A stretch of 15,484 nucleotides of DNA from a virus. Its lineage: Duplodnaviria; Heunggongvirae; Uroviricota; Caudoviricetes. This document shows, one piece after another, positions 1,566 to 15,484 of this stretch. A program made the translations under genes and the position numbers. The notes beneath the pieces are model-generated. The model saw only the letters and a program-made list of their open reading frames with translations. It was not told the DNA's origin and ran no database searches. Position 1 is the stretch's first letter. Every line of letters begins with the position of its first letter. Location of the stretch: the IMG/VR virus record IMGVR_UViG_3300039384_000089, one strand, 5' to 3'.

Positions 1566-2082
1566 CGTTTTATCGCGACGGGTATCAATCGCCATGCGTA
1601 CAACCGCTGGCGCGCTTCATGAAGGAGTTCGCGGAGGTTAACAAATGCTAACCGTCCAGAAGAAGATATTTTCACTGGCTGGTATGTCGCCAAAATCCAG
1701 CAATATGACAGCAAAGTCAGGCATTAATACAGCAGATACAAGCAAAGTTTGTCATTTGCTGGTGGTAGGAGCGGATGCCTTAACCATGTCAGAAATTACG
1801 GTCGATGGTGTTAGCGTTGAGAAGGTCAGCGGCTGCGCCAGAGAATTTCTGGTCGTAGATGGCTTTCTCTTCTCGCGTAGTGACTCCACAAAAACCTTCG
1901 TCCATGCGCGTGACGTTAACGAAATGAGCGCGATGTATTGTGCATCTGGTGCTTCCAATAGTGAGTTTTCGGAGTCCATAAAAAAGAGCTTGCCGTTATG
2001 CGGCAACACGGTTTATGGTTATAAGGCACCTCATAAAACGGGTGCCGGGTTTCGCAGCCCGGAAATGTACGAGGCGACACAT

Positions 2083-2104
2083 GACGCGCCGAGCGTCTTT
2101 TTTT
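2083..2104 (+). terminator. intrinsic terminator-like hairpin (GACGC-gccga-GCGTC) followed by T7
   Basis: 5-bp stem, 5-nt loop, then TTTTTTT at 2098-2104. Confidence 0.5.
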
Positions 2105-3984: not shown

Positions 3985-6747
3985 ATGCGAAACATTGATC
4001 TTATCCGTCAGGTTATCAGTGCGTCTGAAAACAACTGGCCTCATGTGCTGGGCTGCCTGAACATAAATGTCCCTGACTCTCCGCGCCGTCATGCTCCCTG
4101 CCCTGCATGTGGGGGCAAAGATCGATTCCGGTTCGATGACAACGGGCGCGGTAGCTTCATCTGTAATCAGTGCGGCGCTGGTGATGGGCTGGATTTAATT
4201 AAACGCGTAAATAACTGCGACACAACAGAGGCGGCGCTTCTTGTCGCTGATGTTCTGGGTATTGATTACCGGGCAGCGCAATCCGACCCGGTGGCAGCGA
4301 GCCATAGAAGGGAGCAACTGGAAGCTGACCGCCAGCAGCGTGAGCAGGAGCGCCAGAAACAGGCAGCAGAGGACGCAGAGCAGCGAAGGGCTACGTTTGC
4401 CCATCTGTATGCCGGAATGCGCCAGAGTGCCACACAGGGCGAATCTGATTACCTGCAATCAAAAGGGCTGACCGGGTTTAACTATCCGGTTATGCCGGAT
4501 GGTTCGTTATTGCTGGAGCTGGTGGACGAATCCGGCGCAGTGGCAGCAGCGCAAACCATTACACCGCAGGGAGAGAAGCGACTCCTGACAGGTTCAGCAA
4601 AGCGCGGGGCATATCACGCCGTAAACGCGCCAGAATCGCCGCAGAGCGTTTTAATTGCCGAGGGGCTGGCAACCGCTTTATCAGTCCACCTGATGCGCCC
4701 TGACGCGCTGACAGTGTGCGCCATTGATGCGGGCAACCTGCTACCCGTTGCCGAAGTGATGCGCCGGATATATCCAGCCACGCAGATTATCATTGCCGCA
4801 GATAACGACCACCAGCAGGACGAACAGGCGAACACGGGCAAAGATGCCGCAGAGAAAGCCGCCTTATCCGTGGCTGGCTGGGTGGCACTGCCGCCGACAG
4901 ACTACAAAGCCGACTGGGACGACTACCGCCAGCAAAACGGGCTGGAAGTCGCTACGGCTGCGTTTAACGATTCGATGTACCAGATTCAAGGGGAAGCCGT
5001 GAAACCGCGATTGCAAGCCATTGAGGGCGGTAAAACTGACCATCCAGAGAAAGATCCACTAAAACCCCACATTGAGAGCCGCAAAGATGGCGTTTTCTGG
5101 GTAACGCCGAAGGTGGACAAGGAAAGCGGGGAGATCGTCAACGCTGAAAGCTGGTTATGTTCCCCGTTGGAGGTTATCGGCACGGGACGCGACGACAAAG
5201 ATCAGTATCTTATTATCTCATGGCTGGCATTCGGTGCAGGCATACCGACAACAGCGGCTATCCCGCTGGCTGATATTGGCGAGCGTGAAGGCTGGCGCAC
5301 CCTGAAAGCTGGTGGGGTAAATGTCACGACCAAAAGCAGCCTCAGAGCAATACTGGCAGACTGGCTACAACGCAGTGGCTCTCGTGAATTGTGGCGTGTT
5401 GCTCATGCCACTGGCTGGCAATGCGGAGCGTACATCATGCCTGATGGGGAAATCATCGGAACACCTGAAAATCCTGTGCTGTTCAGCGGGAGAAGCTCAG
5501 CCGCAGCCGGATATACCGTCTCAGGGAGCGCGAAAAGCTGGCGTGATAACGTGGCGCGTCTGGCCTTTGGTAACTATTCAATGATGACCGGGATCGGCGC
5601 AGCACTGGCAGCGCCATTGATTGGGCTGGTGGGCGCTGACGGGTTCGGCATTCATTTCTATGAGCAGTCGAGCGCAGGTAAGACCACCACGGCAAACGTG
5701 GCGAGCAGCTTATACGGCAACCCTGATTTACTGCGGCTGACGTGGTACGGAACCGCGCTGGGGCTGGCAAATGAAGCTGCCGCCCACAATGACGGACTAA
5801 TGCCGCTTGATGAAGTTGGTCAGGGCGCTGATCCTGTCAGTGTTTCACAGTCTGCCTATGCGTTATTTAACGGTGTAGGGAAACTGCAAGGCGCTAAAGA
5901 TGGTGGAAACCGGGATCTAAAACGCTGGCGCACAGTGGCAATCAGCACCGGAGAAATGGATTTAGAAACATTTATCGCTACTTCCGGGCGAAAAACCAAA
6001 GCCGGGCAACTGGTGCGACTGCTGAATATTCCGTTGAGTAAAGCAGTACGCTTTCACGATTACCAGAACGGAAAACAGCACGCAGACGCACTGAAAGACG
6101 CTTACCAGCATCACCATGGCGCAGCCGGGCGTGAGTGGATTAAATGGCTGGCAGACCACCAGCAACAGGCTATTAAAACTGTTCGTGATTGCGAAAGCAG
6201 ATGGAGAAGCCTGATCCCATCCGATTATGGTGAGCAGGTTCACCGTGTAGCCGCGCGATTTGCCATTCTGGAGGCCGCATTGTTGTTAGGCGAGGTTGTA
6301 ACAGGCTGGGATGCTCAGACATGCCGTGATGCGATACAGCACAGCTATAACGCATGGTTGCGCGAGTTCGGCACAGGTAACAAAGAGCATCAGCAGATTA
6401 TTGAACAAACGGAGGCATTTCTTAATGCCTATGGGCTTAGCCGTTTTGCACCATTTCCATACAGCCCGGCAGATTTGCCCATCAAAGATTTAGCCGGATA
6501 CCGTCAGCGTGGAGAACATGACGAAAGCCCAATGATTTTCTACACATTCCCGGCCACATTTGAAAAGGAGATCGCATGTGGTTTCAACGCAAAACAGTTT
6601 GCTGAAGTGTTGAAAAAAGCCGGGATGCTAACCCCACCAAACAGCGGTCGTGGATACCAAAGAAAATCACCACGTATTCAGGGACGACAAATAAACGTTT
6701 ATGTACTCAATTACCAGCCAGGAGATTATAACTCATCTGAAGAATGA
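3985..6747 (+). CDS. P4 alpha-like bifunctional DNA primase/helicase (zinc-binding domain, TOPRIM, P-loop NTPase)
   Basis: 920-aa ORF. Cys cluster CPACGG...CNQCG near the N-terminus. TOPRIM-like acidic motifs (LIAEGLATAL, IIAADNDHQ). Walker A-like SSAGKTT in the C-terminal half. Confidence 0.88.
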   Translation: MRNIDLIRQVISASENNWPHVLGCLNINVPDSPRRHAPCPACGGKDRFRFDDNGRGSFICNQCGAGDGLDLIKRVNNCDTTEAALLVADVLGIDYRAAQSDPVAASHRREQLEADRQQREQERQKQAAEDAEQRRATFAHLYAGMRQSATQGESDYLQSKGLTGFNYPVMPDGSLLLELVDESGAVAAAQTITPQGEKRLLTGSAKRGAYHAVNAPESPQSVLIAEGLATALSVHLMRPDALTVCAIDAGNLLPVAEVMRRIYPATQIIIAADNDHQQDEQANTGKDAAEKAALSVAGWVALPPTDYKADWDDYRQQNGLEVATAAFNDSMYQIQGEAVKPRLQAIEGGKTDHPEKDPLKPHIESRKDGVFWVTPKVDKESGEIVNAESWLCSPLEVIGTGRDDKDQYLIISWLAFGAGIPTTAAIPLADIGEREGWRTLKAGGVNVTTKSSLRAILADWLQRSGSRELWRVAHATGWQCGAYIMPDGEIIGTPENPVLFSGRSSAAAGYTVSGSAKSWRDNVARLAFGNYSMMTGIGAALAAPLIGLVGADGFGIHFYEQSSAGKTTTANVASSLYGNPDLLRLTWYGTALGLANEAAAHNDGLMPLDEVGQGADPVSVSQSAYALFNGVGKLQGAKDGGNRDLKRWRTVAISTGEMDLETFIATSGRKTKAGQLVRLLNIPLSKAVRFHDYQNGKQHADALKDAYQHHHGAAGREWIKWLADHQQQAIKTVRDCESRWRSLIPSDYGEQVHRVAARFAILEAALLLGEVVTGWDAQTCRDAIQHSYNAWLREFGTGNKEHQQIIEQTEAFLNAYGLSRFAPFPYSPADLPIKDLAGYRQRGEHDESPMIFYTFPATFEKEIACGFNAKQFAEVLKKAGMLTPPNSGRGYQRKSPRIQGRQINVYVLNYQPGDYNSSEE

Positions 6748-6766
6748 GCTTCTTCATGTGCGTAGA

Positions 6767-6883
6767 AAAGGTGTTGGTTCAGTTGGTTCAGTTGGTTCAA
6801 TTTGTAAAGAGTATTGTTTTATAAGGATTTTATTCTTTTTATTGAACCAACACTGAACCAACAACACGGCATTTTGAACCAAC
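6767..6883. repeat. iteron cluster 1: 3 tandem GTTGGTTCA, AT-rich spacer, 3 inverted TGAACCAAC (putative origin or cis replication region)
   Basis: GTTGGTTCA at 6773, 6782 and 6791. TGAACCAAC at 6843, 6854 and 6875. Lies immediately downstream of the primase gene. Confidence 0.7.
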
Positions 6884-6934
6884 ACAACGTGACTGAATTG
6901 ATGAGCACAACATCTGGCTGGCATCAGAGAGTGC

Positions 6935-7010
6935 TTTACGAGACTTTCGTAAAATCCTGTGTACAAGGGCGTGACGTTTTTGAAAGTGAGCACTACGAAA
7001 TTTTCGTAGT
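6935..7010. promoter_or_regulatory. two related palindromic operator-like sites (TTTACGAGA-C-TTTCGTAAA and ACTACGAAA-T-TTTCGTAGT)
   Basis: Palindromes at 6935-6953 (8/9 arm match) and 6992-7010 (9/9), with centres 57 bp apart and a shared core TACGA.A...T.TCGTA. Confidence 0.35.
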
Positions 7011-7203
7011 TCAAAAAAACAGCCTCTGAGAAGTTGTTATGCCTGTTCAGCAAACCATCCGCATAGCTGATTTCGAATCAAATTACCAATGGAGCCAGAA
7101 GCAAGGGCAGAACTGGAAAGCGCCTGCCGTGAAGAGTAATGCGACACCATAAATATAGTTTTTAGAGTCCATAAAAAACCTGTCAAAACCTGACATACAG
7201 AAC

Positions 7204-7237
7204 GATGCCACCAGCTAATGAGCGGTGGCATTTTTTT
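7204..7237 (+). terminator. intrinsic terminator (ATGCCACC-loop-GGTGGCAT followed by T7)
   Basis: 8-bp stem with a 12-nt loop, directly followed by TTTTTTT. Plausibly ends transcripts coming from the primase operon or the small ORF at 7039. Confidence 0.55.
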
Positions 7238-7293
7238 GTGCTATTTGTTTCATATTTTGCAATCACAATGATGAATGTTGCGTTTTATGAAAT

Positions 7294-7317
7294 TATAATA
7301 ACTGTTGTTTTATACAG
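7294..7317 (+). promoter_or_regulatory. candidate promoter -10 (TATAAT 7294-7299) overlapped downstream by a LexA-box-like CTGT-N8-ACAG (7302-7317)
   Basis: Sequence is aCTGTtgttttatACAGtt. Both conserved LexA half-sites are present with an AT-rich centre. It lies between the -10 and the RBS (7322-7329) of the cargo operon. Confidence 0.4.
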
Positions 7318-7332
7318 TTCTAAGGGGGCGTT

Positions 7333-7506
7333 ATGGCTATTTCAGTAAAGCCAGTATTGATAAGTGAGAAACAAATGGAAGCGATAAAGAAAATTCAGGA
7401 GGAGCAGCGTAAAAAATCAGAGGTAGGAGTTGCGCCAACGATCCACGAAATTGCTCGGGGATTAATGGATAAGGCGCTGACTTACACTTTAACTGGACGT
7501 GGGTAA
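7333..7506 (+). CDS. small protein (57 aa), possible ribbon-helix-helix-type regulator
   Basis: Below the 60-aa cutoff of the ORF track. AAGGGGG RBS 4-11 nt before ATG 7333. Strand-helix-turn-helix pattern read by eye (KPVLISEKQMEAIKK...GVAPTIHEIARGLMDKAL). Stop lies 4 nt before the next start. Confidence 0.5.
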   Translation: MAISVKPVLISEKQMEAIKKIQEEQRKKSEVGVAPTIHEIARGLMDKALTYTLTGRG

Positions 7507-7510
7507 ATCA

Positions 7511-8977
7511 ATGGCTACGTGGCAACAGGGTATTAATTCTGGTGGTTTTCTGGCTGGCATCGGTACGCAAAATGAGAATGCGCCAAAGGCAAGCGACATT
7601 AACGCAACGCTTGGTCTGATCCGCGAAAACAATGAACTGGCTCGATCAGGTGCAAATAACGTTGCTCTGACAGGTCTTCGTGGTCTGGCTGGAGTTGCTG
7701 ATATTTATAAGCAGCAGCAACAGCAGGAGCGTAAAGCGGCATTCCAGAAAGGTTATGCAGATGCTTATGCGTCCGGCGACAGGGAGAAGATGCGTAATCT
7801 TATTACAGCATTCCCAGAAGAGTTTGAGGAAGTCCGTAAAGGCATGGGGTATGTCGATGACGCCCAGCGGGATGATTTTGGCAATCTGGCGCTTAAAGCA
7901 CAGGTAGCTTCGTCGCTTGGTCCGGGCGCATTTGGCAGGTTCATGATGGATAACGAAAAGGAGATGCGTCGTTTAGGTATCCCTCCAGAAACTATTGCTG
8001 AAATGCAGGTTAATGACCCGCAGGGCTTCCAGCACTTCGCAGGTAATCTGGCACTGTTTTCTCTCGGCCATGAGAAGTACTTCGATATCAAAGATCAAAT
8101 GGAAGGTCGGGATATTGAACGTGGCAAGTTGGCAGAGACAATCCGCAGCAATCAGGCCAGCGAAGCACTTCAGGCGAGAGGGCAGGATATTAGCCGAGCA
8201 AATGCGTTAACGTCAGCATATGCACCAACAGCAGCAATGCAGAATTACAATCAGTACGCTCAAATGTTAAAGGCGGATCCAGAGGGGGCGGCGGCATTTG
8301 CGGCAGCGGCTGGAATTAATACAAACGCCAAAAAATTAATGAGTGTTAGAGAAAACGATGATGGCACTGTCACAAAATACTACACAGACGGAAGTGAAGA
8401 GCAGGGAAAACTAAACCAGCCAATATCTGGAGATGGGTTTCGTCCAATAGCTTTGCCAACAGCCCAAAAGATCATGGAAAAGTCGCCAGAAGGGGCTAAA
8501 AAAGCTGCTGGATTTGCATACAGGGTTAGGGATGCTCTTGATTCAATAGATACACTGAAAGACCAGCTTAGCCCACAGCGAGTGGCGATCATTAATAATG
8601 CTTTGGGTAATGGGACGCTGGCTAACTTAACGCTCAGCCCAACAGAGCAGCAATACGTTGTTAATGCTAATGACGCAATAATGGCAATACTCCGTCAGGA
8701 AACAGGGGCATCTATCCTACCAGCTGAAATGTCCAAATATTATCAAATGTATTTCCCTCAGCCTGGTGATTCCACAAAAACCATTGATACCAAGCGCCGG
8801 AAGATGGAAAACCAGTTCAATTCGCTGAAAGCTGCTTCTGGTCGAGCTTATGATGCTTTGCGGGTTATTTCAGCAGTTGACAGAGGAACTTCTTCTTCGT
8901 CGCAGACATTGCCGCAATCTGAGCAGGTATCACAGCCAGCAGCCAGCAGTAATTTTTCTTCACTATGGGGTGATTAA
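7511..8977 (+). CDS. cargo protein B (488 aa), Ala/Gln-rich, largely helical, unknown function
   Basis: Long ORF; ATG 7511 preferred over the GTG at 7499 used by the ORF track. Stop overlaps the next start (TAATG). No catalytic motif recognised. Confidence 0.8.
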   Translation: MATWQQGINSGGFLAGIGTQNENAPKASDINATLGLIRENNELARSGANNVALTGLRGLAGVADIYKQQQQQERKAAFQKGYADAYASGDREKMRNLITAFPEEFEEVRKGMGYVDDAQRDDFGNLALKAQVASSLGPGAFGRFMMDNEKEMRRLGIPPETIAEMQVNDPQGFQHFAGNLALFSLGHEKYFDIKDQMEGRDIERGKLAETIRSNQASEALQARGQDISRANALTSAYAPTAAMQNYNQYAQMLKADPEGAAAFAAAAGINTNAKKLMSVRENDDGTVTKYYTDGSEEQGKLNQPISGDGFRPIALPTAQKIMEKSPEGAKKAAGFAYRVRDALDSIDTLKDQLSPQRVAIINNALGNGTLANLTLSPTEQQYVVNANDAIMAILRQETGASILPAEMSKYYQMYFPQPGDSTKTIDTKRRKMENQFNSLKAASGRAYDALRVISAVDRGTSSSSQTLPQSEQVSQPAASSNFSSLWGD

Positions 8978-11082
8978 TGGCTAAAGCATGGAAAGATGTT
9001 ATCGCTTCTCCACAGTATCAGGCGTTAGCACCAGAACAAAAAGCGCAGGCTCAGGAGCAATACTTCAATGAAGTCGTGGCCCCGCAAGCCGGAGAAAGTG
9101 TAGAGCAGGCTAAGCAGGCTTTTTATGCTGCCTATCCACTACCATCAACGAATGAAATAGACCGATCCCAATCAGCAACTCAAAATATTCAACATACATC
9201 ATCTGATAATTCTCTTGCGTCAGGGTATGCAAAGTTAGCTACTCAGCAAAGAGAGGGGCTTGAGCGTTCAGCAGAACAGGGAGCCAGTCTTGGGGCTGCG
9301 ATGCGCGATGCTATAACAGGCGAAAGCCGAATGACTCCAGAGATGGAGAGACTGCAAAATGTCGCCTCTGCCCCAGAATTGAACTCACTAAGCATGGATG
9401 CCCTAAAGGCTGGATGGTCTCAACTTTTCGGCTCTGACGCGTCTCAGGAAAAGATTCTTCAGGGGATGGGGGCGACATTAAGGCAGGATGAGAAGGGGAA
9501 TACTATCGTTTCTCTGCCATCAGGTGATTATGCCCTGAACAAGCCGGGTTTATCACCGCAAGACCTGACTTCGTTTCTTGCTAATGCGTTGGCGTTTACA
9601 CCAGCGGGCAGGGCTGGAACGGTGCTTGGTGCCATAGGAAAATCAGCAGCTACAGATTTAGCACTACAGGGAGCCACCAGCCTTGCTGGTGGAGAAGATA
9701 TTGATCCGTTACAAACGGTAATTTCTGCTGGCATTGGTGGTATTGGTAAGGGGCTGGAAAATACAGCGAGTGCGGTTTCGAGGGCTGTTCGTGGTGATAT
9801 GTCGCCTGAAGCAAAGGCTGCTGTCGACTTTGCATCGGAAAGAAATCTGCCGTTAATGACCAGTGACATGCTGAAAGATAAAACCTTTATGCAGAGTCAG
9901 GCTCAGACATTAGGCGAAAGAGTTCCTTTTTTTGGAACCGGTAAGAATCGGCTGAATCAACAACAAGCACGAGAAAATTTAGTCAGAACATTTAGCGATG
10001 GTCTGGGTGGCATTTCTGATAAACAGCTTTATGAATCTGCGACTAAAGGGCAACAAAAATTCATTGAGGCAGCAGGAAAGCGATATAACCGCATAATTGA
10101 CGCTATGGGGGATACCCCTGTCGATCTCTCAAACACGGTAAAAGCTATCGACAATCAGATTGCCGTGTTAAGCCGCCCGGGCAAATCTCAGGATAGAGCC
10201 GCGGTAAAAGTCTTGCAGCAATTTAAAGACGATATCACCAGCGGACCAAATGACCTGCGTCTGGCGAGGGAAAACAGAACCGATCTTCGAAAGCGATTTA
10301 TGGCGTCATCTGACACTGTTGATAAAGATACGCTCCAGAAAGCCAGCGATATTATCTACAAGGCATATACGGCGGATATGAAAAAAGCCGTAGCCAAAAA
10401 TCTTGGAGCAGACGAAGCCATTAATATGGCAAGGGTTGATCGCTCATGGTCTAAATTCAATGACATGATGGGAAGAACGCGCGTTCAAAAGGCAATAGCC
10501 AGCGGCAAGGCCACGCCTGAGGATGTAACAAAACTCGTTTTTAGCCAAAGCCCATCAGAACGTTCTCAGCTTTACAGGCTTCTGGATGACAATGGTAGGC
10601 AAAACGCACGAGCAGCCATAGTTCAGAATGCTGTAGATAAGGCGACTGATCCGTCTGGAAATATCAGTGTTGAGAAGTTTATTAATGCGTTACACCGGAA
10701 CAGGAAGCAATCAGCAACTTTCTTTAAAGGCGTACATGGAAAGGAACTGGACGGCGTTATTAAATACCTCAACGATACAAGACACGCGGCAAAAGCGAAC
10801 GTTCAAAACTTAAATGGTCAGCAGCTTTATGGATTGTTAGTTGGTGGTGGCATCATAAACGCAGCAGTATTAGCGGGGATGCTAAAAACGGCTGCGTTTG
10901 TTGTTCCTGCTGCTGGTGCCGTAGGCGGAGCAGCGAAGGCATACGAAAGCCCTGTTATACGAAATGCCTTGTTACGTCTGGCAAATACGCCAAAAGGTAG
11001 CACAGCATATGACAGAGCGATCAGTACGGTCACACAATCGCTCACCAGAGTCGCACAGGCATCACAAAAAGAAGTTCAATAA
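8977..11082 (+). CDS. cargo protein C (701 aa), unknown function, with a C-terminal Gly/Ala-rich hydrophobic hairpin
   Basis: Long ORF coupled to B. Hydrophobic segment LYGLLVGGGIINAAVLAGMLKTAAFVVPAAGAVGGAA at about nt 10815-10935. A second Gly-rich stretch (ISAGIGGIGKG) mid-protein. No canonical Walker A. Confidence 0.85.
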   Translation: MAKAWKDVIASPQYQALAPEQKAQAQEQYFNEVVAPQAGESVEQAKQAFYAAYPLPSTNEIDRSQSATQNIQHTSSDNSLASGYAKLATQQREGLERSAEQGASLGAAMRDAITGESRMTPEMERLQNVASAPELNSLSMDALKAGWSQLFGSDASQEKILQGMGATLRQDEKGNTIVSLPSGDYALNKPGLSPQDLTSFLANALAFTPAGRAGTVLGAIGKSAATDLALQGATSLAGGEDIDPLQTVISAGIGGIGKGLENTASAVSRAVRGDMSPEAKAAVDFASERNLPLMTSDMLKDKTFMQSQAQTLGERVPFFGTGKNRLNQQQARENLVRTFSDGLGGISDKQLYESATKGQQKFIEAAGKRYNRIIDAMGDTPVDLSNTVKAIDNQIAVLSRPGKSQDRAAVKVLQQFKDDITSGPNDLRLARENRTDLRKRFMASSDTVDKDTLQKASDIIYKAYTADMKKAVAKNLGADEAINMARVDRSWSKFNDMMGRTRVQKAIASGKATPEDVTKLVFSQSPSERSQLYRLLDDNGRQNARAAIVQNAVDKATDPSGNISVEKFINALHRNRKQSATFFKGVHGKELDGVIKYLNDTRHAAKANVQNLNGQQLYGLLVGGGIINAAVLAGMLKTAAFVVPAAGAVGGAAKAYESPVIRNALLRLANTPKGSTAYDRAISTVTQSLTRVAQASQKEVQ

Positions 11083-11100
11083 CTGGTTAGCCACGGATGG

Positions 11101-11451
11101 CTAATTTTTGTTCTTTGCTCTCATCCACAGGTAAAGAAGGGCAAGAACAAGACAAAAAACAGAGAATAGATAACCTACCTCATATGATGCGCCAAAAAAA
11201 TTAGCTATTGATACGGGCAAAAAAGCTGAAGCGATCAAAATTGAAAGGCAAAAAATAAGACCAGTAATATAGTTTATTAAATTCTTAAATGAGAAACGTT
11301 TTGCTTGATTTATGGTCTTAGCGAACGATCGCTTAACGACGGATAAAAGCAAATAGATGGCGACAGTTGCTAATGCCCCTTTCCACCAGTCTGGATATAG
11401 TTTTGCGACAATCAGACCAAGGAAAACCATGATGACAGCCTGAGCATTCAC
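11101..11451 (-). CDS. small polytopic membrane protein (about 116 aa, about 4 predicted TM helices), convergent with protein C
   Basis: GGGAGGG sits 5 nt before the GTG whose codon is 11449-11451 on the minus strand. The ORF track extends to 11688 but upstream ATGs lack an RBS. Four hydrophobic stretches of roughly 15-19 residues. Ends 19 bp from the stop of C. Confidence 0.6.
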   Translation of the reverse strand: MNAQAVIMVFLGLIVAKLYPDWWKGALATVAIYLLLSVVKRSFAKTINQAKRFSFKNLINYITGLIFCLSILIASAFLPVSIANFFGASYEVGYLFSVFCLVLALLYLWMRAKNKN

Positions 11452-11577
11452 ACCAACCCTCCCTTTAGCGTTGTTTAGAATGGCAATCATCATATATCCA
11501 AGACATGGCATTTGGTACATAGCTTGGGTCGGGATTTCAAATCCGCCCCCGTTGATGGGGTCGTTACAGTACGCGCA

Positions 11578-11945
11578 TATCCGCTTTATGTGAAACAGGA
11601 AGATTTTTCTGATATCACTGCCACAGCAAAACACCAATTTCGAGACAAGTACGCGCGCGAGGGGTATCAGTTGCAAAAAGTTTTGCAACTGCGTCCGACT
11701 AGTACGCGCACGATGGCGGGGGATACCATAAAAGTGTTCTCTACATGAGACAGAGTGGTGGTGATGTGTTGATTATCGGCGCATATGCGCACAGGACGCG
11801 CTATGACAATGTTTTATGCGGGTACACCAATCACATGTATCTGGTGTGATAAATCGCGTTACATGACCTCTCATGTTGTGCTGGTGGTTATCACGACTTT
11901 CTGAATCTGGCCTTTGCCTGATATTTTGCGACAAGTACGCGCGCG
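11578..11945. repeat. cluster of direct AGTACGCGC repeats, two extended to GACAAGTACGCGCGCG with palindromic TA(CG)nTA cores
   Basis: Copies at 11578, 11648, 11701 and 11934, all on the same strand. Nearby palindromes TTGCAAAA-AG-TTTTGCAA (11671-11688) and GCGCATATGCGC (11780-11791). About 450 bp without a convincing ORF. Confidence 0.5.
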
Positions 11946-11973
11946 TAGCATCGACAGCATACACATTGGATAT

Positions 11974-12195
11974 TCATTTTGTGACCAATGCGATAAGTAG
12001 CGGGATAAGAATTGATAAAATCAACAGGCCGATGATCCACTTTTGATTTTCACTGGCCTTATCTCTATTTTCATCAATCTTATCAATAATTCGACGCTCC
12101 AATCCGTGCATATCACCGCGAATGGCAATCATCTCATTGCGAACATCAGGGAAGTGGTTGGCTTGATGTTCAATGTGTGGCGTTCTGCCTTTCAT
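11974..12195 (-). CDS. small C-terminally anchored membrane protein (73 aa)
   Basis: GAGGA sits 4 nt before the ATG at 12195 (minus strand). Charged, helical N-terminal half, then one hydrophobic helix (WIIGLLILSILIPLLIALV) at the C-terminus. Confidence 0.55.
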   Translation of the reverse strand: MKGRTPHIEHQANHFPDVRNEMIAIRGDMHGLERRIIDKIDENRDKASENQKWIIGLLILSILIPLLIALVTK

Positions 12196-12274
12196 ATCTG
12201 ATCCTCACCTATCGTCACTACCTGCTGGTGTATAAAGGTATTGGCCCAAGCAACTTTCCAATGGGCACTCATGT

Positions 12275-12730
12275 TTATACGCTGACCTTACAATCAATCA
12301 CTGCTTTTAGCTTTTCAGCATTGCTTCCCTGACGCTTCCACGCGCTGTAAATATCTTTATCCCACGCTTTACCAGCTTTTGTTTGATAGCCTGCTTCATT
12401 GATCCGTTCAGCTATCACACGCCCATTATCAAATCCCTGTTGGATGGTATCGGCAATGATCTTTATAACTGCCGTTTCGTTATATGGTTTTGGTGGGATG
12501 TTCGGCTTTCCGGCAATAAGCGACGCAGCGGCTTTTTCCATGCGCTCCACCAGCCCAAGCATTCGTGAATCAATAGACTTTTCCGGCTGCCCCAGCTTCA
12601 TGCGAATCGCATCAACAAGCCAGGAGGTTTTATCTCCTCCAGAAGCGAGAACAGACCGATTAAACTCATCCTGCAATTCAGATGGGATGCGGAACGCGAC
12701 CAGATTAGATTTGCTCATTGCAAAGACCAT
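12275..12730 (-). CDS. ribbon-helix-helix (Arc/CopG-like) DNA-binding protein with a C-terminal extension (about 147-151 aa)
   Basis: N-terminus NLVAFRIPSELQDEFNRSVLASGGDKTSWLVDAIRMKL fits the RHH beta-alpha-alpha pattern. Start is ambiguous between the ATGs at 12730 and 12718. Palindromic operators lie in its promoter. Confidence 0.65.
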   Translation of the reverse strand: MVFAMSKSNLVAFRIPSELQDEFNRSVLASGGDKTSWLVDAIRMKLGQPEKSIDSRMLGLVERMEKAAASLIAGKPNIPPKPYNETAVIKIIADTIQQGFDNGRVIAERINEAGYQTKAGKAWDKDIYSAWKRQGSNAEKLKAVIDCKVSV

Positions 12731-12747
12731 ATCAGTGAGTAATATCC

Positions 12748-12778
12748 ATACAGTATACCACTGTATAACACTGTTATA
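12748..12778. promoter_or_regulatory. overlapping palindromic operator-like sites (ATACAGT-ATACC-ACTGTAT and TATAACA-C-TGTTATA) upstream of the RHH gene
   Basis: Perfect 7-bp inverted repeat arms, located 18-48 bp upstream of the minus-strand RHH start. Confidence 0.4.
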
Positions 12779-12832
12779 CGCTCAAATATCAGCCAGAAAA
12801 TAACGGACCAATCACAAATCTATCGCTGTGTT

Positions 12833-12960
12833 GTTGGTTCAGAGCTGGGCTGTGTTGGTTCAAAATGAGTTGATGTTGGTTCAATATTTCAGAAAAAACA
12901 CAATAAAAACAACAATCTTTACAAATTGAACCAACTGAACCAACTGAACCAACACCTTTT
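12833..12960. repeat. iteron cluster 2: 3 spaced GTTGGTTCA, AT-rich spacer, 3 tandem TGAACCAAC; inverted copy of cluster 1
   Basis: GTTGGTTCA at 12833, 12854 and 12875. TGAACCAAC at 12927, 12936 and 12945. Positions 12917-12960 are the exact reverse complement of 6767-6810 (44 bp). Confidence 0.7.
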
Positions 12961-12989
12961 TGCTTATCTATATAATCTGAGAGGCAGAA

Positions 12990-13271
12990 ATGATAAGGGA
13001 CAGGAAAGCTGAAGAGCTGGAGTCAAAAGGGCTATACCGGAGAGCTGCCGCACGATGGATGGAAGTCATGCTGTTATGCACCGAGGACGATGATCGGGAA
13101 TGGATAAAGCGCCGCCGTGAAACGTGTCTGGAGAACGTGAAGCGCCCGCCCGTGAAGGTTGAGGAATTTGGCGACCTGCATAAAGCTGTTACCGAAACGC
13201 AACACCGCATGGGGATAGCGCAACCGAACGGTAACGCCTTCCGGTTAAATGGCGGCAAGAGGCAAAGGTAG
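12990..13271 (+). CDS. PerC-family-like transcriptional regulator (93 aa)
   Basis: GAGG 5 nt before the ATG, and TATAAT at 12971-12976. Motif ...LESKGLYRRAAARWMEVM...REWIKRRRETC... matches my recollection of the PerC/Pch family. Confidence 0.6.
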   Translation: MIRDRKAEELESKGLYRRAAARWMEVMLLCTEDDDREWIKRRRETCLENVKRPPVKVEEFGDLHKAVTETQHRMGIAQPNGNAFRLNGGKRQR

Positions 13272-13319
13272 ACCACCAGAGGGAAATCATCCTCTGGCTG
13301 GCGGTTTCTGGTATTTCGG

Positions 13320-13335
13320 GACAAGTACGCGCGCG
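13320..13335. repeat. fifth copy of GACAAGTACGCGCGCG (14-bp palindromic core TACGCGCGCGCGTA)
   Basis: Same orientation and flanking pattern (ctgRtatttYgSgacaagtacgcgcgcg...tagca) as the copy at 11930. Confidence 0.5.
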
Positions 13336-14894: not shown

Positions 14895-15143
14895 GGGGGT
14901 ACTTTTGGGGGTATCTATAAAAAATGAACAATAAAAAAGGCAACAAAAACAAAGCTTATCGCCTATGTGTATTGTTCCTATTATCGCACCATTCTAACGT
15001 CTCCCCAAGTCTACTAAAGTATTTAAAAACCTCTTATAATCAGTATATTAATGCCCCTTTTAGTCTTTTGACGTCTATTTAAGTACCCCAAACTCTACAA
15101 GCAATTGAGGGGATTTGCTGTTCAGTTTAGTGGAGATACCCCC
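14895..15143. promoter_or_regulatory. integrase upstream region with GGGGTAYCT-type motifs present as inverted pairs
   Basis: GGGGTACT (14896-14903) pairs with AGTACCCC (15082-15089). GGGGTATCT (14908-14916) pairs with AGATACCCC (15134-15142). AT-rich DNA lies between them. Confidence 0.3.
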
Positions 15144-15145
15144 AA

Positions 15146-15484
15146 GTGAAACTCAATGCCCGTCAAATAGACACTGCCAAGCCAAAAGAGAAGGCTTACA
15201 AGTTGGCTGATGGTGGTGGTCTGTACCTCCTGGTAAAACCTGGTGGAGGAGAATATTGGCGTCTCAAGTATCGTGTAGCTGGTAAAGAGAAGCTGTTAGC
15301 ACTAGGTGTGTATCCTGAGGTCACCTTAGCTGATGCTCCTGCAAAACTTGAAGAAGCTAAAAGAGGTATCTCTGGGGGAATCGATCTGATGGAAGTGAAG
15401 CGAGAGGAAAAGATTGCCCGGGAAACGCAGTTAAACAACACCTTCAAAGATATTGCCCTTGAGTGGCACAGTAACAAATTATAA
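15146..15484 (+). CDS. int: tyrosine integrase, P4/CP4-57-type N-terminal arm-binding domain; only 112 codons before an in-frame TAA at the window edge
   Basis: GTG start with GGAG upstream. Translation MKLNARQIDTAKPKEKAYKLADGGGLYLLVKPGGGEYWRLKYR... is the typical N-terminus of this integrase family. Stop is at 15482-15484, where full-length members run to about 400 aa. Confidence 0.75.
   Translation: MKLNARQIDTAKPKEKAYKLADGGGLYLLVKPGGGEYWRLKYRVAGKEKLLALGVYPEVTLADAPAKLEEAKRGISGGIDLMEVKREEKIARETQLNNTFKDIALEWHSNKL

What the first reader, a model, noticed from the sequence alone, without database searches (positions are those of the whole stretch)
6767..12960. Two inverted iteron clusters, 44 bp identical, bracket the 6-kb cargo downstream of the primase
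Each cluster holds three GTTGGTTCA repeats, an AT-rich spacer and three TGAACCAAC repeats, spaced at 9, 11 or 21 bp. Positions 6767-6810 are the exact reverse complement of 12917-12960. P4 alpha primase/helicase is known to bind iterons at both ori and a distant cis replication region, so these may be the analogous pair for this element. Alternatively they could be the recombinogenic ends of an invertible or exchangeable cargo cassette. The second cluster also overlaps the divergent promoters of the RHH and PerC-like genes, which would couple replication-protein binding to cargo regulation.
Basis: partly seen in the sequence, partly recalled or inferred. Interest (0 to 1): 0.65.

Follow-up and report, generated by a model that had tools for sequence, protein, structure and literature searches.

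The report
Split replication origin of a phage satellite
The two mirror-image repeat clusters are the two halves of the replication origin of a phage-parasitic island (a PICI), pushed 6 kb apart by inserted phage-derived genes; the origin type is known, but the split layout seems not to have been described.

Summary
GTTGGTTCA occurs 12 times, only in two clusters (6773-6883 and 12833-12953).

The window is a Gram-negative PICI-type satellite. Cluster 1 is its canonical origin: iterons flanking an AT-rich spacer immediately 3' of the pri-rep gene.

- Iterons covary with the initiator. RKSPRI (residues 893-898) goes with GAACCAAC in 25 loci and GRVRE with AGACAACA in 6. Only 8 of 920 columns discriminate, all in residues 825-912.
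- Most relatives carry one compact origin of about 260 bp and 12 iterons, whose outer 3x9 arrays are already inverted repeats.
- In the window and in seven other genera, cargo sits inside that origin, with invariant spacings (9,9,52,11,21 and 21,21,52,9,9).
- Iteron columns are 91-98% conserved against 56% for the other columns, so both clusters appear selected.
- No inversion was found in 551 E. coli genomes.
- Cargo varies between elements.
- No consensus promoter overlaps cluster 2, and the RHH call is unsupported.
- Intact cluster-2 copies also sit beside non-cognate or truncated primases, so whether it is needed for replication is unproven.

Verdict: a new variant of a known kind, of moderate interest.

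The parts
3985..6747 (+). pri-rep gene (920 aa). It has a Zn-ribbon plus TOPRIM primase domain, a DUF927 helicase/initiator domain, and a C-terminal tail that tracks iteron specificity.
   Evidence: Pfam matches Zn_Ribbon_Prim, Toprim_3 and DUF927. Residues 7-331 are 34% identical to P4 alpha (E 2e-42). Residues 413-815 match PDB 8tch_A 'Pathogenicity island protein' (E 2.5e-10) and 5dgk 'Active helicase'.
6661..6678 (+). Codons for RKSPRI (residues 893-898), the inferred iteron-specificity determinant.
   Evidence: RKSPRI is present in all 25 GAACCAAC-type loci and is replaced by GRVRE in all 6 AGACAACA-type loci. Only 8 of 920 alignment columns separate the two classes, all within residues 825-912.
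6766..6890 (.). Cluster 1, the canonical PICI origin unit. It has 3 x GTTGGTTCA (6773-6799, 9-bp steps), a 43-bp spacer at 84% AT (6800-6842), and 3 x TGAACCAAC (6843-6883, steps 11 and 21).
   Evidence: Searches give the anatomy. The same architecture (9,9,52,11,21) is found in 10 loci from 8 genera. Iteron columns are 97.8% identical against 56% for the other columns. It matches the published Gram-negative PICI origin layout (PMC6092414).
6914..6923 (+). CTGGCTGGCA, a conserved non-iteron motif about 30 bp 3' of cluster 1.
   Evidence: The motif lies at the same offset from the primase stop in loci of six iteron classes. Its function is unknown.
6924..12824 (.). Cargo lying inside the origin. 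It holds a 57-aa ORF (7333-7506), a P22 gp20-like ejection protein (7499-8977), a gp16-like DNA transfer protein (8977-11082), and three minus-strand ORFs (11101-11688, 11974-12195, 12275-12730).
   Evidence: Pfam matches Inj_translocase, and PHROGs match 917 and 770. No PADLOC or Pfam match was found for the minus-strand ORFs. Content varies among relatives.
12825..12960 (.). Cluster 2, a second origin-like unit in inverted orientation. It has 3 x GTTGGTTCA (12833-12883, steps 21 and 21), a 43-bp spacer at 81% AT (12884-12926), and 3 x TGAACCAAC (12927-12953, 9-bp steps).
   Evidence: Searches give the anatomy. The architecture 21(22),21,52,9,9 holds in most of the split loci compared. Iteron columns are 90.9% identical against 55.7% for the other columns. 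Its terminal 3x9 array and right flank are orthologous to the right end of the compact origin.
12990..13271 (+). perC-family gene, 37 bp after the last iteron.
   Evidence: Pfam PerC, E 3.7e-30. In other genera perC follows cluster 1 instead.

Best explanation
The window is a Gram-negative PICI-type phage satellite. Its Pri-Rep protein fuses a P4-alpha-like primase domain to a SaPI-Rep-like DUF927 helicase/initiator.

Inferred mechanism: Pri-Rep recognises the 9-bp iteron GTTGGTTCA through its C-terminal ~100 residues, with RKSPRI at 893-898 as the specificity motif. It assembles on oppositely oriented iteron arms either side of a 43-bp AT-rich spacer, melts the spacer, loads itself and primes.

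Cluster 1, immediately 3' of pri-rep, is the canonical origin. In the ancestral and commonest form, the origin is one compact palindromic unit of about 260 bp with 12 iterons, whose outer 3x9 arrays are inverted repeats.

In this lineage about 6 kb of phage-derived cargo lies inside that unit. The distal half has become a second complete origin-like unit, cluster 2. Its iterons and spacings are conserved across eight genera, so cluster 2 most likely still binds Pri-Rep. It would then act as a second initiation site or as a cis partner of cluster 1, by protein-mediated looping as proposed for P4 ori/crr.

Shown here: the anatomy, the covariation, the conservation and the compact-versus-split homology. 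Inferred: binding, melting, and the role of cluster 2.
For: - Element identity. Relatives run int, HTH, AntA, Ash, pri-rep, cargo, perC at thrW or yicC/dinD.
- Published model. [quoted passage not shown] SaPI Reps bind 6-12 such iterons through a C-terminal winged-helix domain (PMC9371898).
- Homology. DUF927 residues 413-815 match 8tch_A 'Pathogenicity island protein' and the 5dgk helicase.
- Covariation across primase types. The window's DUF927 protein goes with GTTGGTTCA. An 87%-identical primase goes with TGTTGTCTC, a DUF5906 primase with GGTACAGG, and a P4-family primase with GTAGGGAT.
- Covariation within the family. Across 43 loci the C-terminal motif tracks the iteron class, and only 8 of 920 columns discriminate.
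- Compact origin. The pattern ---+++ ++- +++ recurs within 250-310 bp in at least 18 loci and in several iteron classes.
- Split form. It occurs in L019, L026, L027, L035, L042, L062, L068 and in E. coli, with invariant spacing. Iteron columns are 91-98% conserved against 56% for the others.
- Junction mapping. L052 (compact) and L019 (split) come from one species and share 94.6% primase identity. Their homology stops after cluster 1 and resumes exactly at the terminal 3x9 array and its right flank.
Against: - There are no binding or replication data for this allele.
- Intact cluster-2 copies persist next to perC in elements whose primase is DUF5906-type (L092) or truncated (L008, L091). Cluster 2 can therefore survive without a cognate initiator in cis, at least over short times.
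- Several relatives show only cluster 1 within 10 kb.
- The inner arm of cluster 2 (---) differs in orientation from the second half of the compact origin (++-), so it is not a simple split.
- The C-terminal domain model was of low confidence (pLDDT 51), so a winged-helix fold is not shown.
Confidence: 0.72

Rival explanations
1. Cluster 2 is an obligatory cis replication region like P4 crr. Initiation at cluster 1 would require Pri-Rep bound at both sites, looping out the cargo.
For: - The P4 record shows iteron arrays at two sites 4.7 kb apart. One of them (crr, 4291-4590) lies immediately 3' of the alpha gene.
- The window's primase domain is homologous to P4 alpha.
- All compact origins keep both halves, in several iteron classes.
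Against: - Published PICI and SaPI data describe a single rep-proximal origin as sufficient.
- Some relatives have only cluster 1 within 10 kb.
- The helicase and origin-binding part is unrelated to P4 alpha.
- In P4 the two sites bracket the replication operon, not cargo.
Confidence: 0.2
2. Cluster 2 is a negative copy-number or timing control array, like the incA array of P1 or the incC array of F. It would titrate or 'handcuff' Pri-Rep bound at cluster 1.
For: - It has the same iterons as the origin, lies outside the rep-proximal unit, and is under purifying selection.
- Auxiliary iteron arrays with this role are established in iteron plasmids (my own knowledge).
Against: - Cluster 2 keeps a complete origin-like design, with two opposed arms, a 43-bp AT-rich spacer and the same 52-bp arm distance as cluster 1. 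Titration alone would not need this.
- A satellite that must over-replicate after induction has little obvious need for copy limitation.
Confidence: 0.12
3. Cluster 2 is a non-functional relic or hitch-hiker. It would have arisen from an inverted duplication or from recombination between two satellites, and be carried along with the neighbouring minus-strand gene and perC module.
For: - Orphan cluster 2 sits beside non-cognate or truncated primases in L092, L091 and L008.
- Split and compact forms are interleaved in primase similarity, which implies frequent module shuffling.
- L006 carries a 99.6% identical direct repeat of its own cluster around its cargo, a sign of recent recombination.
Against: - Across eight genera the cluster-2 iterons are 91% identical while the surrounding columns are 56% identical. 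The spacings 21,21,52,9,9 are kept. That is not expected for neutral DNA.
Confidence: 0.13
4. The clusters are recombination ends of an invertible cargo cassette.
For: - They form a 45-55 bp inverted repeat.
- Cargo differs between relatives, and module boundaries coincide with cluster edges.
Against: - A chimeric query built to represent the inverted junction is covered at 80% or more in 0 of 551 E. coli genomes.
- Cargo orientation is the same in every locus examined.
- No recombinase gene lies in the cargo.
- The inverted symmetry exists in compact origins with no cargo between the arrays.
Confidence: 0.03
5. Cluster 2 is mainly a transcriptional operator through which Pri-Rep controls perC and the divergent minus-strand gene.
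For: - perC starts 37 bp after the last iteron, and a perfect TATAAT lies at 12971-12976.
- In other genera perC also lies within about 40 bp of an iteron arm, there the arm of cluster 1.
Against: - The consensus scan finds no promoter in 12600-13050.
- The TATAAT is only 13 nt from the ATG and has a poor -35.
- In L068 and L019 cluster 2 is not in a divergent intergenic region.
- A palindrome likely to be the operator of the minus-strand gene lies outside cluster 2, within 12750-12790 (read directly from the sequence).
Confidence: 0.1

Closest known systems
Replication origin of Gram-negative PICIs (EcCICFT073 and other E. coli PICIs; Fillol-Salom et al. 2018, PMC6092414)
   Same: - The element type is the same: int, alpA-like HTH, pri-rep, origin, accessory and late genes, with some elements carrying perC.
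[quoted passage not shown]
- There are several pri-rep alleles, each with its own iterons.
   Different: - The text I could read describes a single rep-proximal origin.
- Here relatives have a larger 12-iteron palindromic unit, and in this lineage it is interrupted by 5-10 kb of cargo, leaving a second complete origin-like unit in inverted orientation.
- I could not see their Fig. 2a and could not locate EcCICFT073 in the CFT073 record, so I could not compare directly.
SaPI Rep/PriRep self-loading helicases and SaPI origins (PMC9371898)
   Same: - The DUF927 domain matches 8tch_A, deposited as 'Pathogenicity island protein', and the 5dgk helicase by sequence. I take these to be SaPI Rep/Cch relatives.
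- There are 6-12 iterons immediately downstream of rep, an AT-rich centre, and opposite orientation on the two sides.
- Specificity resides in the C-terminal domain, shown experimentally in SaPIs and inferred here from covariation.
   Different: - The iterons are 9 bp rather than 5-6 bp.
- The host is Gram-negative.
- The primase domain is of P4-alpha type.
- There is a second origin unit kilobases away.
Satellite phage P4 ori plus crr (NC_001609)
   Same: - Two iteron-bearing cis sites lie several kb apart, and one is immediately 3' of the primase-helicase gene. Both contain iterons in both orientations.
- The N-terminal primase domains are homologous (34% identity, E 2e-42).
   Different: - The helicase and origin-binding part is unrelated.
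- The iteron sequence is different, with no TGTTCACC in the window.
- P4 crr is two direct 120-bp repeats, and the ori/crr pair brackets the alpha operon rather than cargo.
- No sid, delta or psu genes are present.
Auxiliary iteron arrays of iteron plasmids (P1 incA, F incC)
   Same: A second array of the initiator's binding sites lies outside the minimal origin.
   Different: Those arrays lack an AT-rich unwinding element between opposed arms, and they act negatively. Neither property has been tested here.

Membership tests
Gram-negative PICI | Integrase at one end and a dedicated chromosomal attachment site | tested here: met
   The window starts after int. In close relatives the same island begins with a tyrosine integrase next to tRNA-Thr (L002, L003) or next to yicC (L001, L005). 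The window's right end abuts a tRNA-Thr-associated integrase fragment.
Gram-negative PICI | AlpA-type regulator heading a unidirectional early operon | tested here: inconclusive
   ORF 1-204 and all early ORFs are on the + strand. RefSeq annotates its homologues as 'helix-turn-helix transcriptional regulator', and the gene at the same position in L004 as 'AlpA family'. I did not run a family search on ORF 1-204.
Gram-negative PICI | [quoted passage not shown] | tested here: met
   Cluster 1 starts 19 bp after the pri-rep stop, with three plus three opposed iterons and a spacer at 84% AT.
Gram-negative PICI | Small size (10-20 kb) without a full set of virion genes | tested here: met
   In L002 the island spans about 17 kb between tRNA-Thr and the pao genes. 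The only virion-type genes found are the two ejection-protein genes.
Gram-negative PICI | Induction by, and packaging by, a helper phage | not testable with these tools
   This needs induction and transfer experiments.
SaPI-type Rep/ori replicon | Self-loading Rep helicase homologous to SaPI Rep/Cch | tested here: met
   Residues 413-815 match 8tch_A 'Pathogenicity island protein' (E 2.5e-10) and 5dgk_A 'Active helicase' (E 0.007).
SaPI-type Rep/ori replicon | C-terminal winged-helix domain that reads the iterons | tested here: inconclusive
   Covariation puts the specificity in residues 825-912. The AlphaFold model of residues 780-920 has pLDDT 51, so the fold is not established.
P4-like satellite (ori/crr replicon) | P4 alpha-type primase-helicase-origin-binding protein | tested here: not met
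   Only residues 7-331 align with P4 alpha (34% identity). The rest gives no significant alignment.
P4-like satellite (ori/crr replicon) | Type-1 iterons TGTTCACC at ori and crr | tested here: not met
   There are 0 matches in the window. The P4 record's annotated repeats are listed.
P4-like satellite (ori/crr replicon) | Two iteron-bearing sites kilobases apart, both required in cis | tested here: inconclusive
   Two sites 6.1 kb apart are present. Whether both are required cannot be tested here.
P4-like satellite (ori/crr replicon) | sid, delta and psu capsid-size and late-control genes | tested here: not met
   No such families appear among the Pfam or PHROG hits for the window's ORFs.
Invertible DNA segment | Both orientations present in the population, and an adjacent invertase | tested here: not met
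   0 of 551 E. coli genomes match the inverted junction at 80% coverage or more. No recombinase gene lies between or next to the repeats.

The most novel reading that the evidence does not exclude
The PICI origin of this pri-rep family is a bipartite palindromic 12-iteron machine whose interior is a preferred landing site for accessory and virion-protein genes. When the halves are separated, they are kept as two complete, inverted origin units. These units would still communicate through Pri-Rep, by looping or dual firing. Replication initiation would then physically enclose the cargo and preferentially amplify or regulate it after helper induction. On this reading the origin doubles as the module boundary at which satellites swap cargo.
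Probability: 0.25. Interest if true: 0.7.

Novelty: new variant of a known kind. Interest (0 to 1): 0.5.

Why it matters
PICIs spread virulence and anti-phage genes, and their replication is what lets them outcompete the helper phage.

- The results point to a short C-terminal motif (RKSPRI against GRVRE and others) that predicts which iteron each Pri-Rep reads. That is a directly testable specificity code. It is useful for predicting cross-replication or incompatibility between co-resident satellites, and for engineering PICI-based delivery vectors.
- They also indicate that accessory genes can sit inside the origin, with both halves still under selection. If the two halves cooperate, this would be a second example, alongside P4 ori/crr, of long-range origin architecture in a satellite.
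- It would also explain why cargo modules are bounded by iteron arrays.

If cluster 2 proves dispensable, the finding reduces to an ordinary PICI origin plus a conserved duplicate.

Tried and rejected
- EcCICFT073. I tried to find the model PICI in CFT073 by fetching two 50-kb stretches (1.39-1.49 Mb). They held a lambdoid prophage and core genes but no PICI, so there is no direct comparison with the model origin.
- Structure. I modelled the Pri-Rep C-terminal 141 aa with a 29-sequence alignment. The pLDDT was 51, too low, so I ran no fold search and make no winged-helix claim.
- Promoters and terminators. Scans around both clusters found nothing.
- The 'RHH' gene 12275-12730. It has no Pfam, PADLOC or informative PHROG match.
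- Literature. Searches for P4 crr details returned nothing useful, so I used the annotated P4 record instead. The tandem iteron string appears in no paper in the library. The PDB code 8TCH gave no relevant paper.
- Invertible-cassette idea. Tested with a synthetic inverted-junction query and rejected.
- GACAAGTACGCGCGCG repeats. I checked whether they are targets of the C4/isrK-like RNAs and found no complementarity of 7 nt or more.
- Simple-split idea. I considered that the split origin is a plain cut of the compact one and rejected it. The inner arm of cluster 2 has orientation --- where the compact form has ++-.
Full report
**1. Observation**

The nonamer GTTGGTTCA and its complement occur 12 times in the 15.5-kb window, all within 6773-6883 and 12833-12953. 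With one mismatch allowed there are 15 matches against 3.5 expected, and none of 200 shuffles reaches that.

- Cluster 1 has three direct copies at 9-bp steps, a 43-bp spacer at 84% AT, then three inverted copies at steps of 11 and 21.
- Cluster 2 has three copies at steps of 21 and 21, a 43-bp spacer at 81% AT, then three inverted copies at 9-bp steps.
- The arms 6766-6820 and 12906-12960 are 96% complementary over 55 nt, and 6849-6886 and 12851-12888 are 84% complementary over 38 nt.
- Cluster 2 is therefore the reverse complement of the whole of cluster 1, with a 10-bp indel.
- The exact stretch is 45 bp (6766-6810 against 12916-12960).

**2. What the element is**

The ORFs upstream are an HTH protein, AntA, Ash (which contains C4 and isrK RNA matches), small ORFs, and a 920-aa protein with Zn-ribbon, TOPRIM and DUF927 domains. 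Downstream lie P22 gp20- and gp16-like ejection proteins, three unannotatable minus-strand ORFs, perC, a pRiA4b ORF-3 family gene, and the start of another integrase.

In complete E. coli genomes the same island starts with a tyrosine integrase. It sits at tRNA-Thr next to proA, or between yicC and dinD. This is the gene order and size published for Gram-negative PICIs. [quoted passage not shown] Cluster 1 begins 19 bp after the pri-rep stop and fits that description exactly.

**3. The protein**

- Residues 7-331 are 34% identical to the primase domain of P4 alpha (E 2e-42). Nothing beyond residue 331 aligns.
- Residues 413-815 match PDB 8tch_A, deposited as 'Pathogenicity island protein' (E 2.5e-10), and the 5dgk helicase.
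- SaPI Reps are self-loading helicases. Their C-terminal winged-helix domain reads 6-12 iterons placed just after rep around an AT-rich centre (PMC9371898).
- The window protein is thus a P4-alpha-like primase fused to a SaPI-Rep-like initiator helicase.

**4. The iterons belong to this protein**

In E. coli relatives with other replication proteins, the repeats after the gene change with the protein.

| Replication protein | Iteron |
|---|---|
| DUF927 protein, 87% identical to the window's | TGTTGTCTC |
| DUF5906 primase | GGTACAGG |
| P4-family primase | GTAGGGAT |

I then fetched 78 loci encoding relatives of the window protein from one genome per species and derived the dominant repeat after each gene. 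The extreme C-terminus tracks the repeat.

| C-terminal motif | Iteron |
|---|---|
| RKSPRI | GAACCAAC |
| GRVRE | AGACAACA |
| RKTPRI | TGAACCGA |
| RKALKRI | TAACCCGT |
| TRK(T/S)LRI | GAACCGAC |
| TKKTLV | two further variants |

Among 31 proteins of the first two classes, overall identities interleave (68-88% against 74-87% to the window). Only 8 of 920 columns separate the classes, all within residues 825-912, and five of them are contiguous at 893-898. This is strong comparative evidence, short of an experiment, that the C-terminal tail reads the iterons.

A structure model of residues 780-920 was of low confidence (pLDDT 51), so I do not claim a fold.

**5. The symmetry is a property of the origin, not of the cargo**

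The commonest arrangement in the 78 loci is one compact block of 250-310 bp with 12 iterons in the pattern ---+++ ++- +++. It occurs in several iteron classes and many genera.

- Read out, the block runs: a 3x9 array; an AT-rich spacer; three inverted iterons at steps of 11 and 21; about 40 bp that often contain CTGGCTGGCA; three iterons at 21-bp steps; a spacer; then an inverted 3x9 array followed by ACACCTTTTT.
- The outer 3x9 arrays are therefore inverted repeats even when only about 200 bp apart.
- Two Lonsdalea britannica elements with 94.6% identical primases make the relation explicit. One is compact (L052) and one is split (L019). Their homology runs through the primase and cluster 1, then stops. 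It resumes exactly at the terminal 3x9 array and its right flank.
- The cargo thus lies inside the origin. The inner arm and AT-rich spacer of cluster 2 come with the cargo side.

**6. Cluster 2 is conserved**

The split form is found in Lonsdalea, Chimaeribacter, Rosenbergiella, Pantoea, Serratia, Leclercia and Cedecea, as well as Escherichia. The two clusters lie 4.8-9.9 kb apart.

- Cluster 1 almost always has spacing 9,9,52,11,21. Cluster 2 has 21(22),21,52,9,9.
- Exceptions: L042 has 62 instead of 52 in cluster 1 and one reversed iteron in cluster 2, and for L026 and L035 only five of the six cluster-2 iterons were retrieved.
- Across eight genera, iteron columns are 97.8% identical in cluster 1 and 90.9% in cluster 2. 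The remaining columns of the same clusters are 56% identical in both.
- The two clusters keep their own distinct inner-arm spacing in every element. They are therefore old paralogues with occasional homogenisation, as in the window, not a recent duplication.
- I infer that the spacings 21, 11 and 52 bp (about 2, 1 and 5 helical turns) place the inner iterons on one face of the helix.

**7. Evidence against a necessary role for cluster 2**

- Intact GTTGGTTCA cluster-2 copies lie next to perC in elements whose primase is DUF5906-type with its own GGTACAGG clusters (L092), or truncated by deletion (L008, L091).
- Split and compact forms interleave in primase similarity, so modules are shuffled often.
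- In L006 a 235-bp direct repeat (99.6% identical) of that element's own cluster brackets cargo plus perC.
- Module boundaries thus coincide with iteron clusters, which gives limited support to the 'exchangeable cassette' idea.

**8. No inversion**

I built the junction that inversion between the arms would create and searched 5,426 complete E. coli genomes. Of these, 551 match parts of it. None covers 80% or more; the best coverage is 58-60%, that is one side plus the shared arm. Cargo orientation is the same in every locus I examined, and there is no recombinase gene in the cargo.

**9. Cargo**

Between the clusters, a conserved 57-aa ORF is followed by different virion-internal or DNA-delivery proteins in different elements:

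- P22-type ejection proteins in the window.
- Tape-measure proteins in L026 and L062.
- SLT-domain proteins in L027 and L068.
- Elsewhere between the clusters, a Fic gene (L027) and a P4 Beta-protein gene (L068).

E. coli relatives differ in the minus-strand genes and carry IS insertions.

**10. Promoter coupling**

The consensus scans found no sigma-70-like promoter in 12600-13050 or 6700-7520. A perfect TATAAT lies at 12971-12976, but it is 13 nt from the perC ATG and has a poor -35. In other genera perC directly follows cluster 1, not cluster 2. The 'RHH' label for ORF 12275-12730 has no family support.

**11. Comparison with P4**

The annotated P4 record shows crr (two 120-bp direct repeats, five type-1 iterons each) immediately 3' of alpha. 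The ori lies 4.7 kb away, across the alpha operon. The window resembles this in having two initiator-binding sites kilobases apart, one of them rep-proximal. It fails the membership tests on initiator type, iteron sequence and hallmark genes.

**12. Verdict**

Cluster 1 is an ordinary Gram-negative PICI origin. The pair is that origin split by cargo, with the distal half kept as a second, selected, origin-like unit.

Whether cluster 2 fires, cooperates with cluster 1, limits replication or does little cannot be decided without experiments. I favour a second Pri-Rep-binding site that fires or cooperates. No paper in the library carries these iteron strings, and the text I could read describes only a single rep-proximal origin. 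I therefore rate the finding a new variant of a known kind.

Noticed in passing
window 11644-11659, 11697-11712, 11930-11945, 13320-13335: A motif of about 25 nt, TTTYGNGACAAGTACGCGCGCG, recurs 3-4 times in intergenic DNA. In related elements it is always on the element's + strand, whatever the local gene direction, both in the early Ash/Icd zone and in the right part of the cargo. It shows no complementarity of 7 nt or more to the C4/isrK-like RNAs.
   Followed up: partly
window 6914-6923 and 13294-13303: CTGGCTGGCA lies about 30 bp 3' of cluster 1. The same motif sits at the same offset from the primase stop in loci of six different iteron classes, so it is a conserved non-iteron element of the origin. 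It could be a priming or host-factor site, which is speculation. A second copy (CTGGCTGGCG) lies just before the repeat at 13320.
   Followed up: partly
window 7333-11082; L026 14632-18042; L062 16228-18912; L027 14445-16247; L068 16258-18012: Behind a conserved 57-aa ORF, different satellites carry different DNA-delivery or virion-internal proteins: P22 gp20/gp16-like ejection proteins, tape-measure proteins, or SLT transglycosylase proteins. This suggests the satellites supply their own injection components.
   Followed up: partly
window 2026-2103 and 2166-2253: Rfam isrK (69 bits) and C4 antisense RNA (81 bits) match inside the Ash-family gene. This suggests a P4/P1-type immunity RNA in this PICI.
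   Followed up: no
window 6935-6953 and 6992-7010: Two palindromes, TTTACGAGACTTTCGTAAA and ACTACGAAATTTTCGTAGT, lie between cluster 1 and the 57-aa ORF. The first is conserved at the head of the same cargo in the DUF5906-type element L003. They could be operators or a late-promoter control region.
   Followed up: no
L006 10213-10445 and 18128-18360: In a DUF5906-primase relative, a 235-bp direct repeat (99.6% identical) of its own iteron cluster brackets the whole cargo plus perC. This suggests recent recombination at iteron clusters.
   Followed up: partly
L092 13274-13394; L091 13274-13394; L008 10981-11101: Intact GTTGGTTCA-type cluster 2 persists upstream of perC in elements whose primase is DUF5906-type, with its own GGTACAGG clusters, or truncated. 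These are orphan initiator sites that a co-resident satellite could use in trans.
   Followed up: partly
window 12750-12790: A palindrome, ATACAGTATACCACTGTAT, followed by AACACTGTTATAC, lies between ORF 12275-12730 and cluster 2. It is probably that gene's own operator and lies outside the iteron cluster (read).
   Followed up: no
window 14976-15484: The right end of the window matches a tRNA-Thr-associated Arm-DNA-binding integrase at 99.6% in many E. coli genomes. The PICI therefore sits in tandem with a second integrative element at thrW.
   Followed up: no
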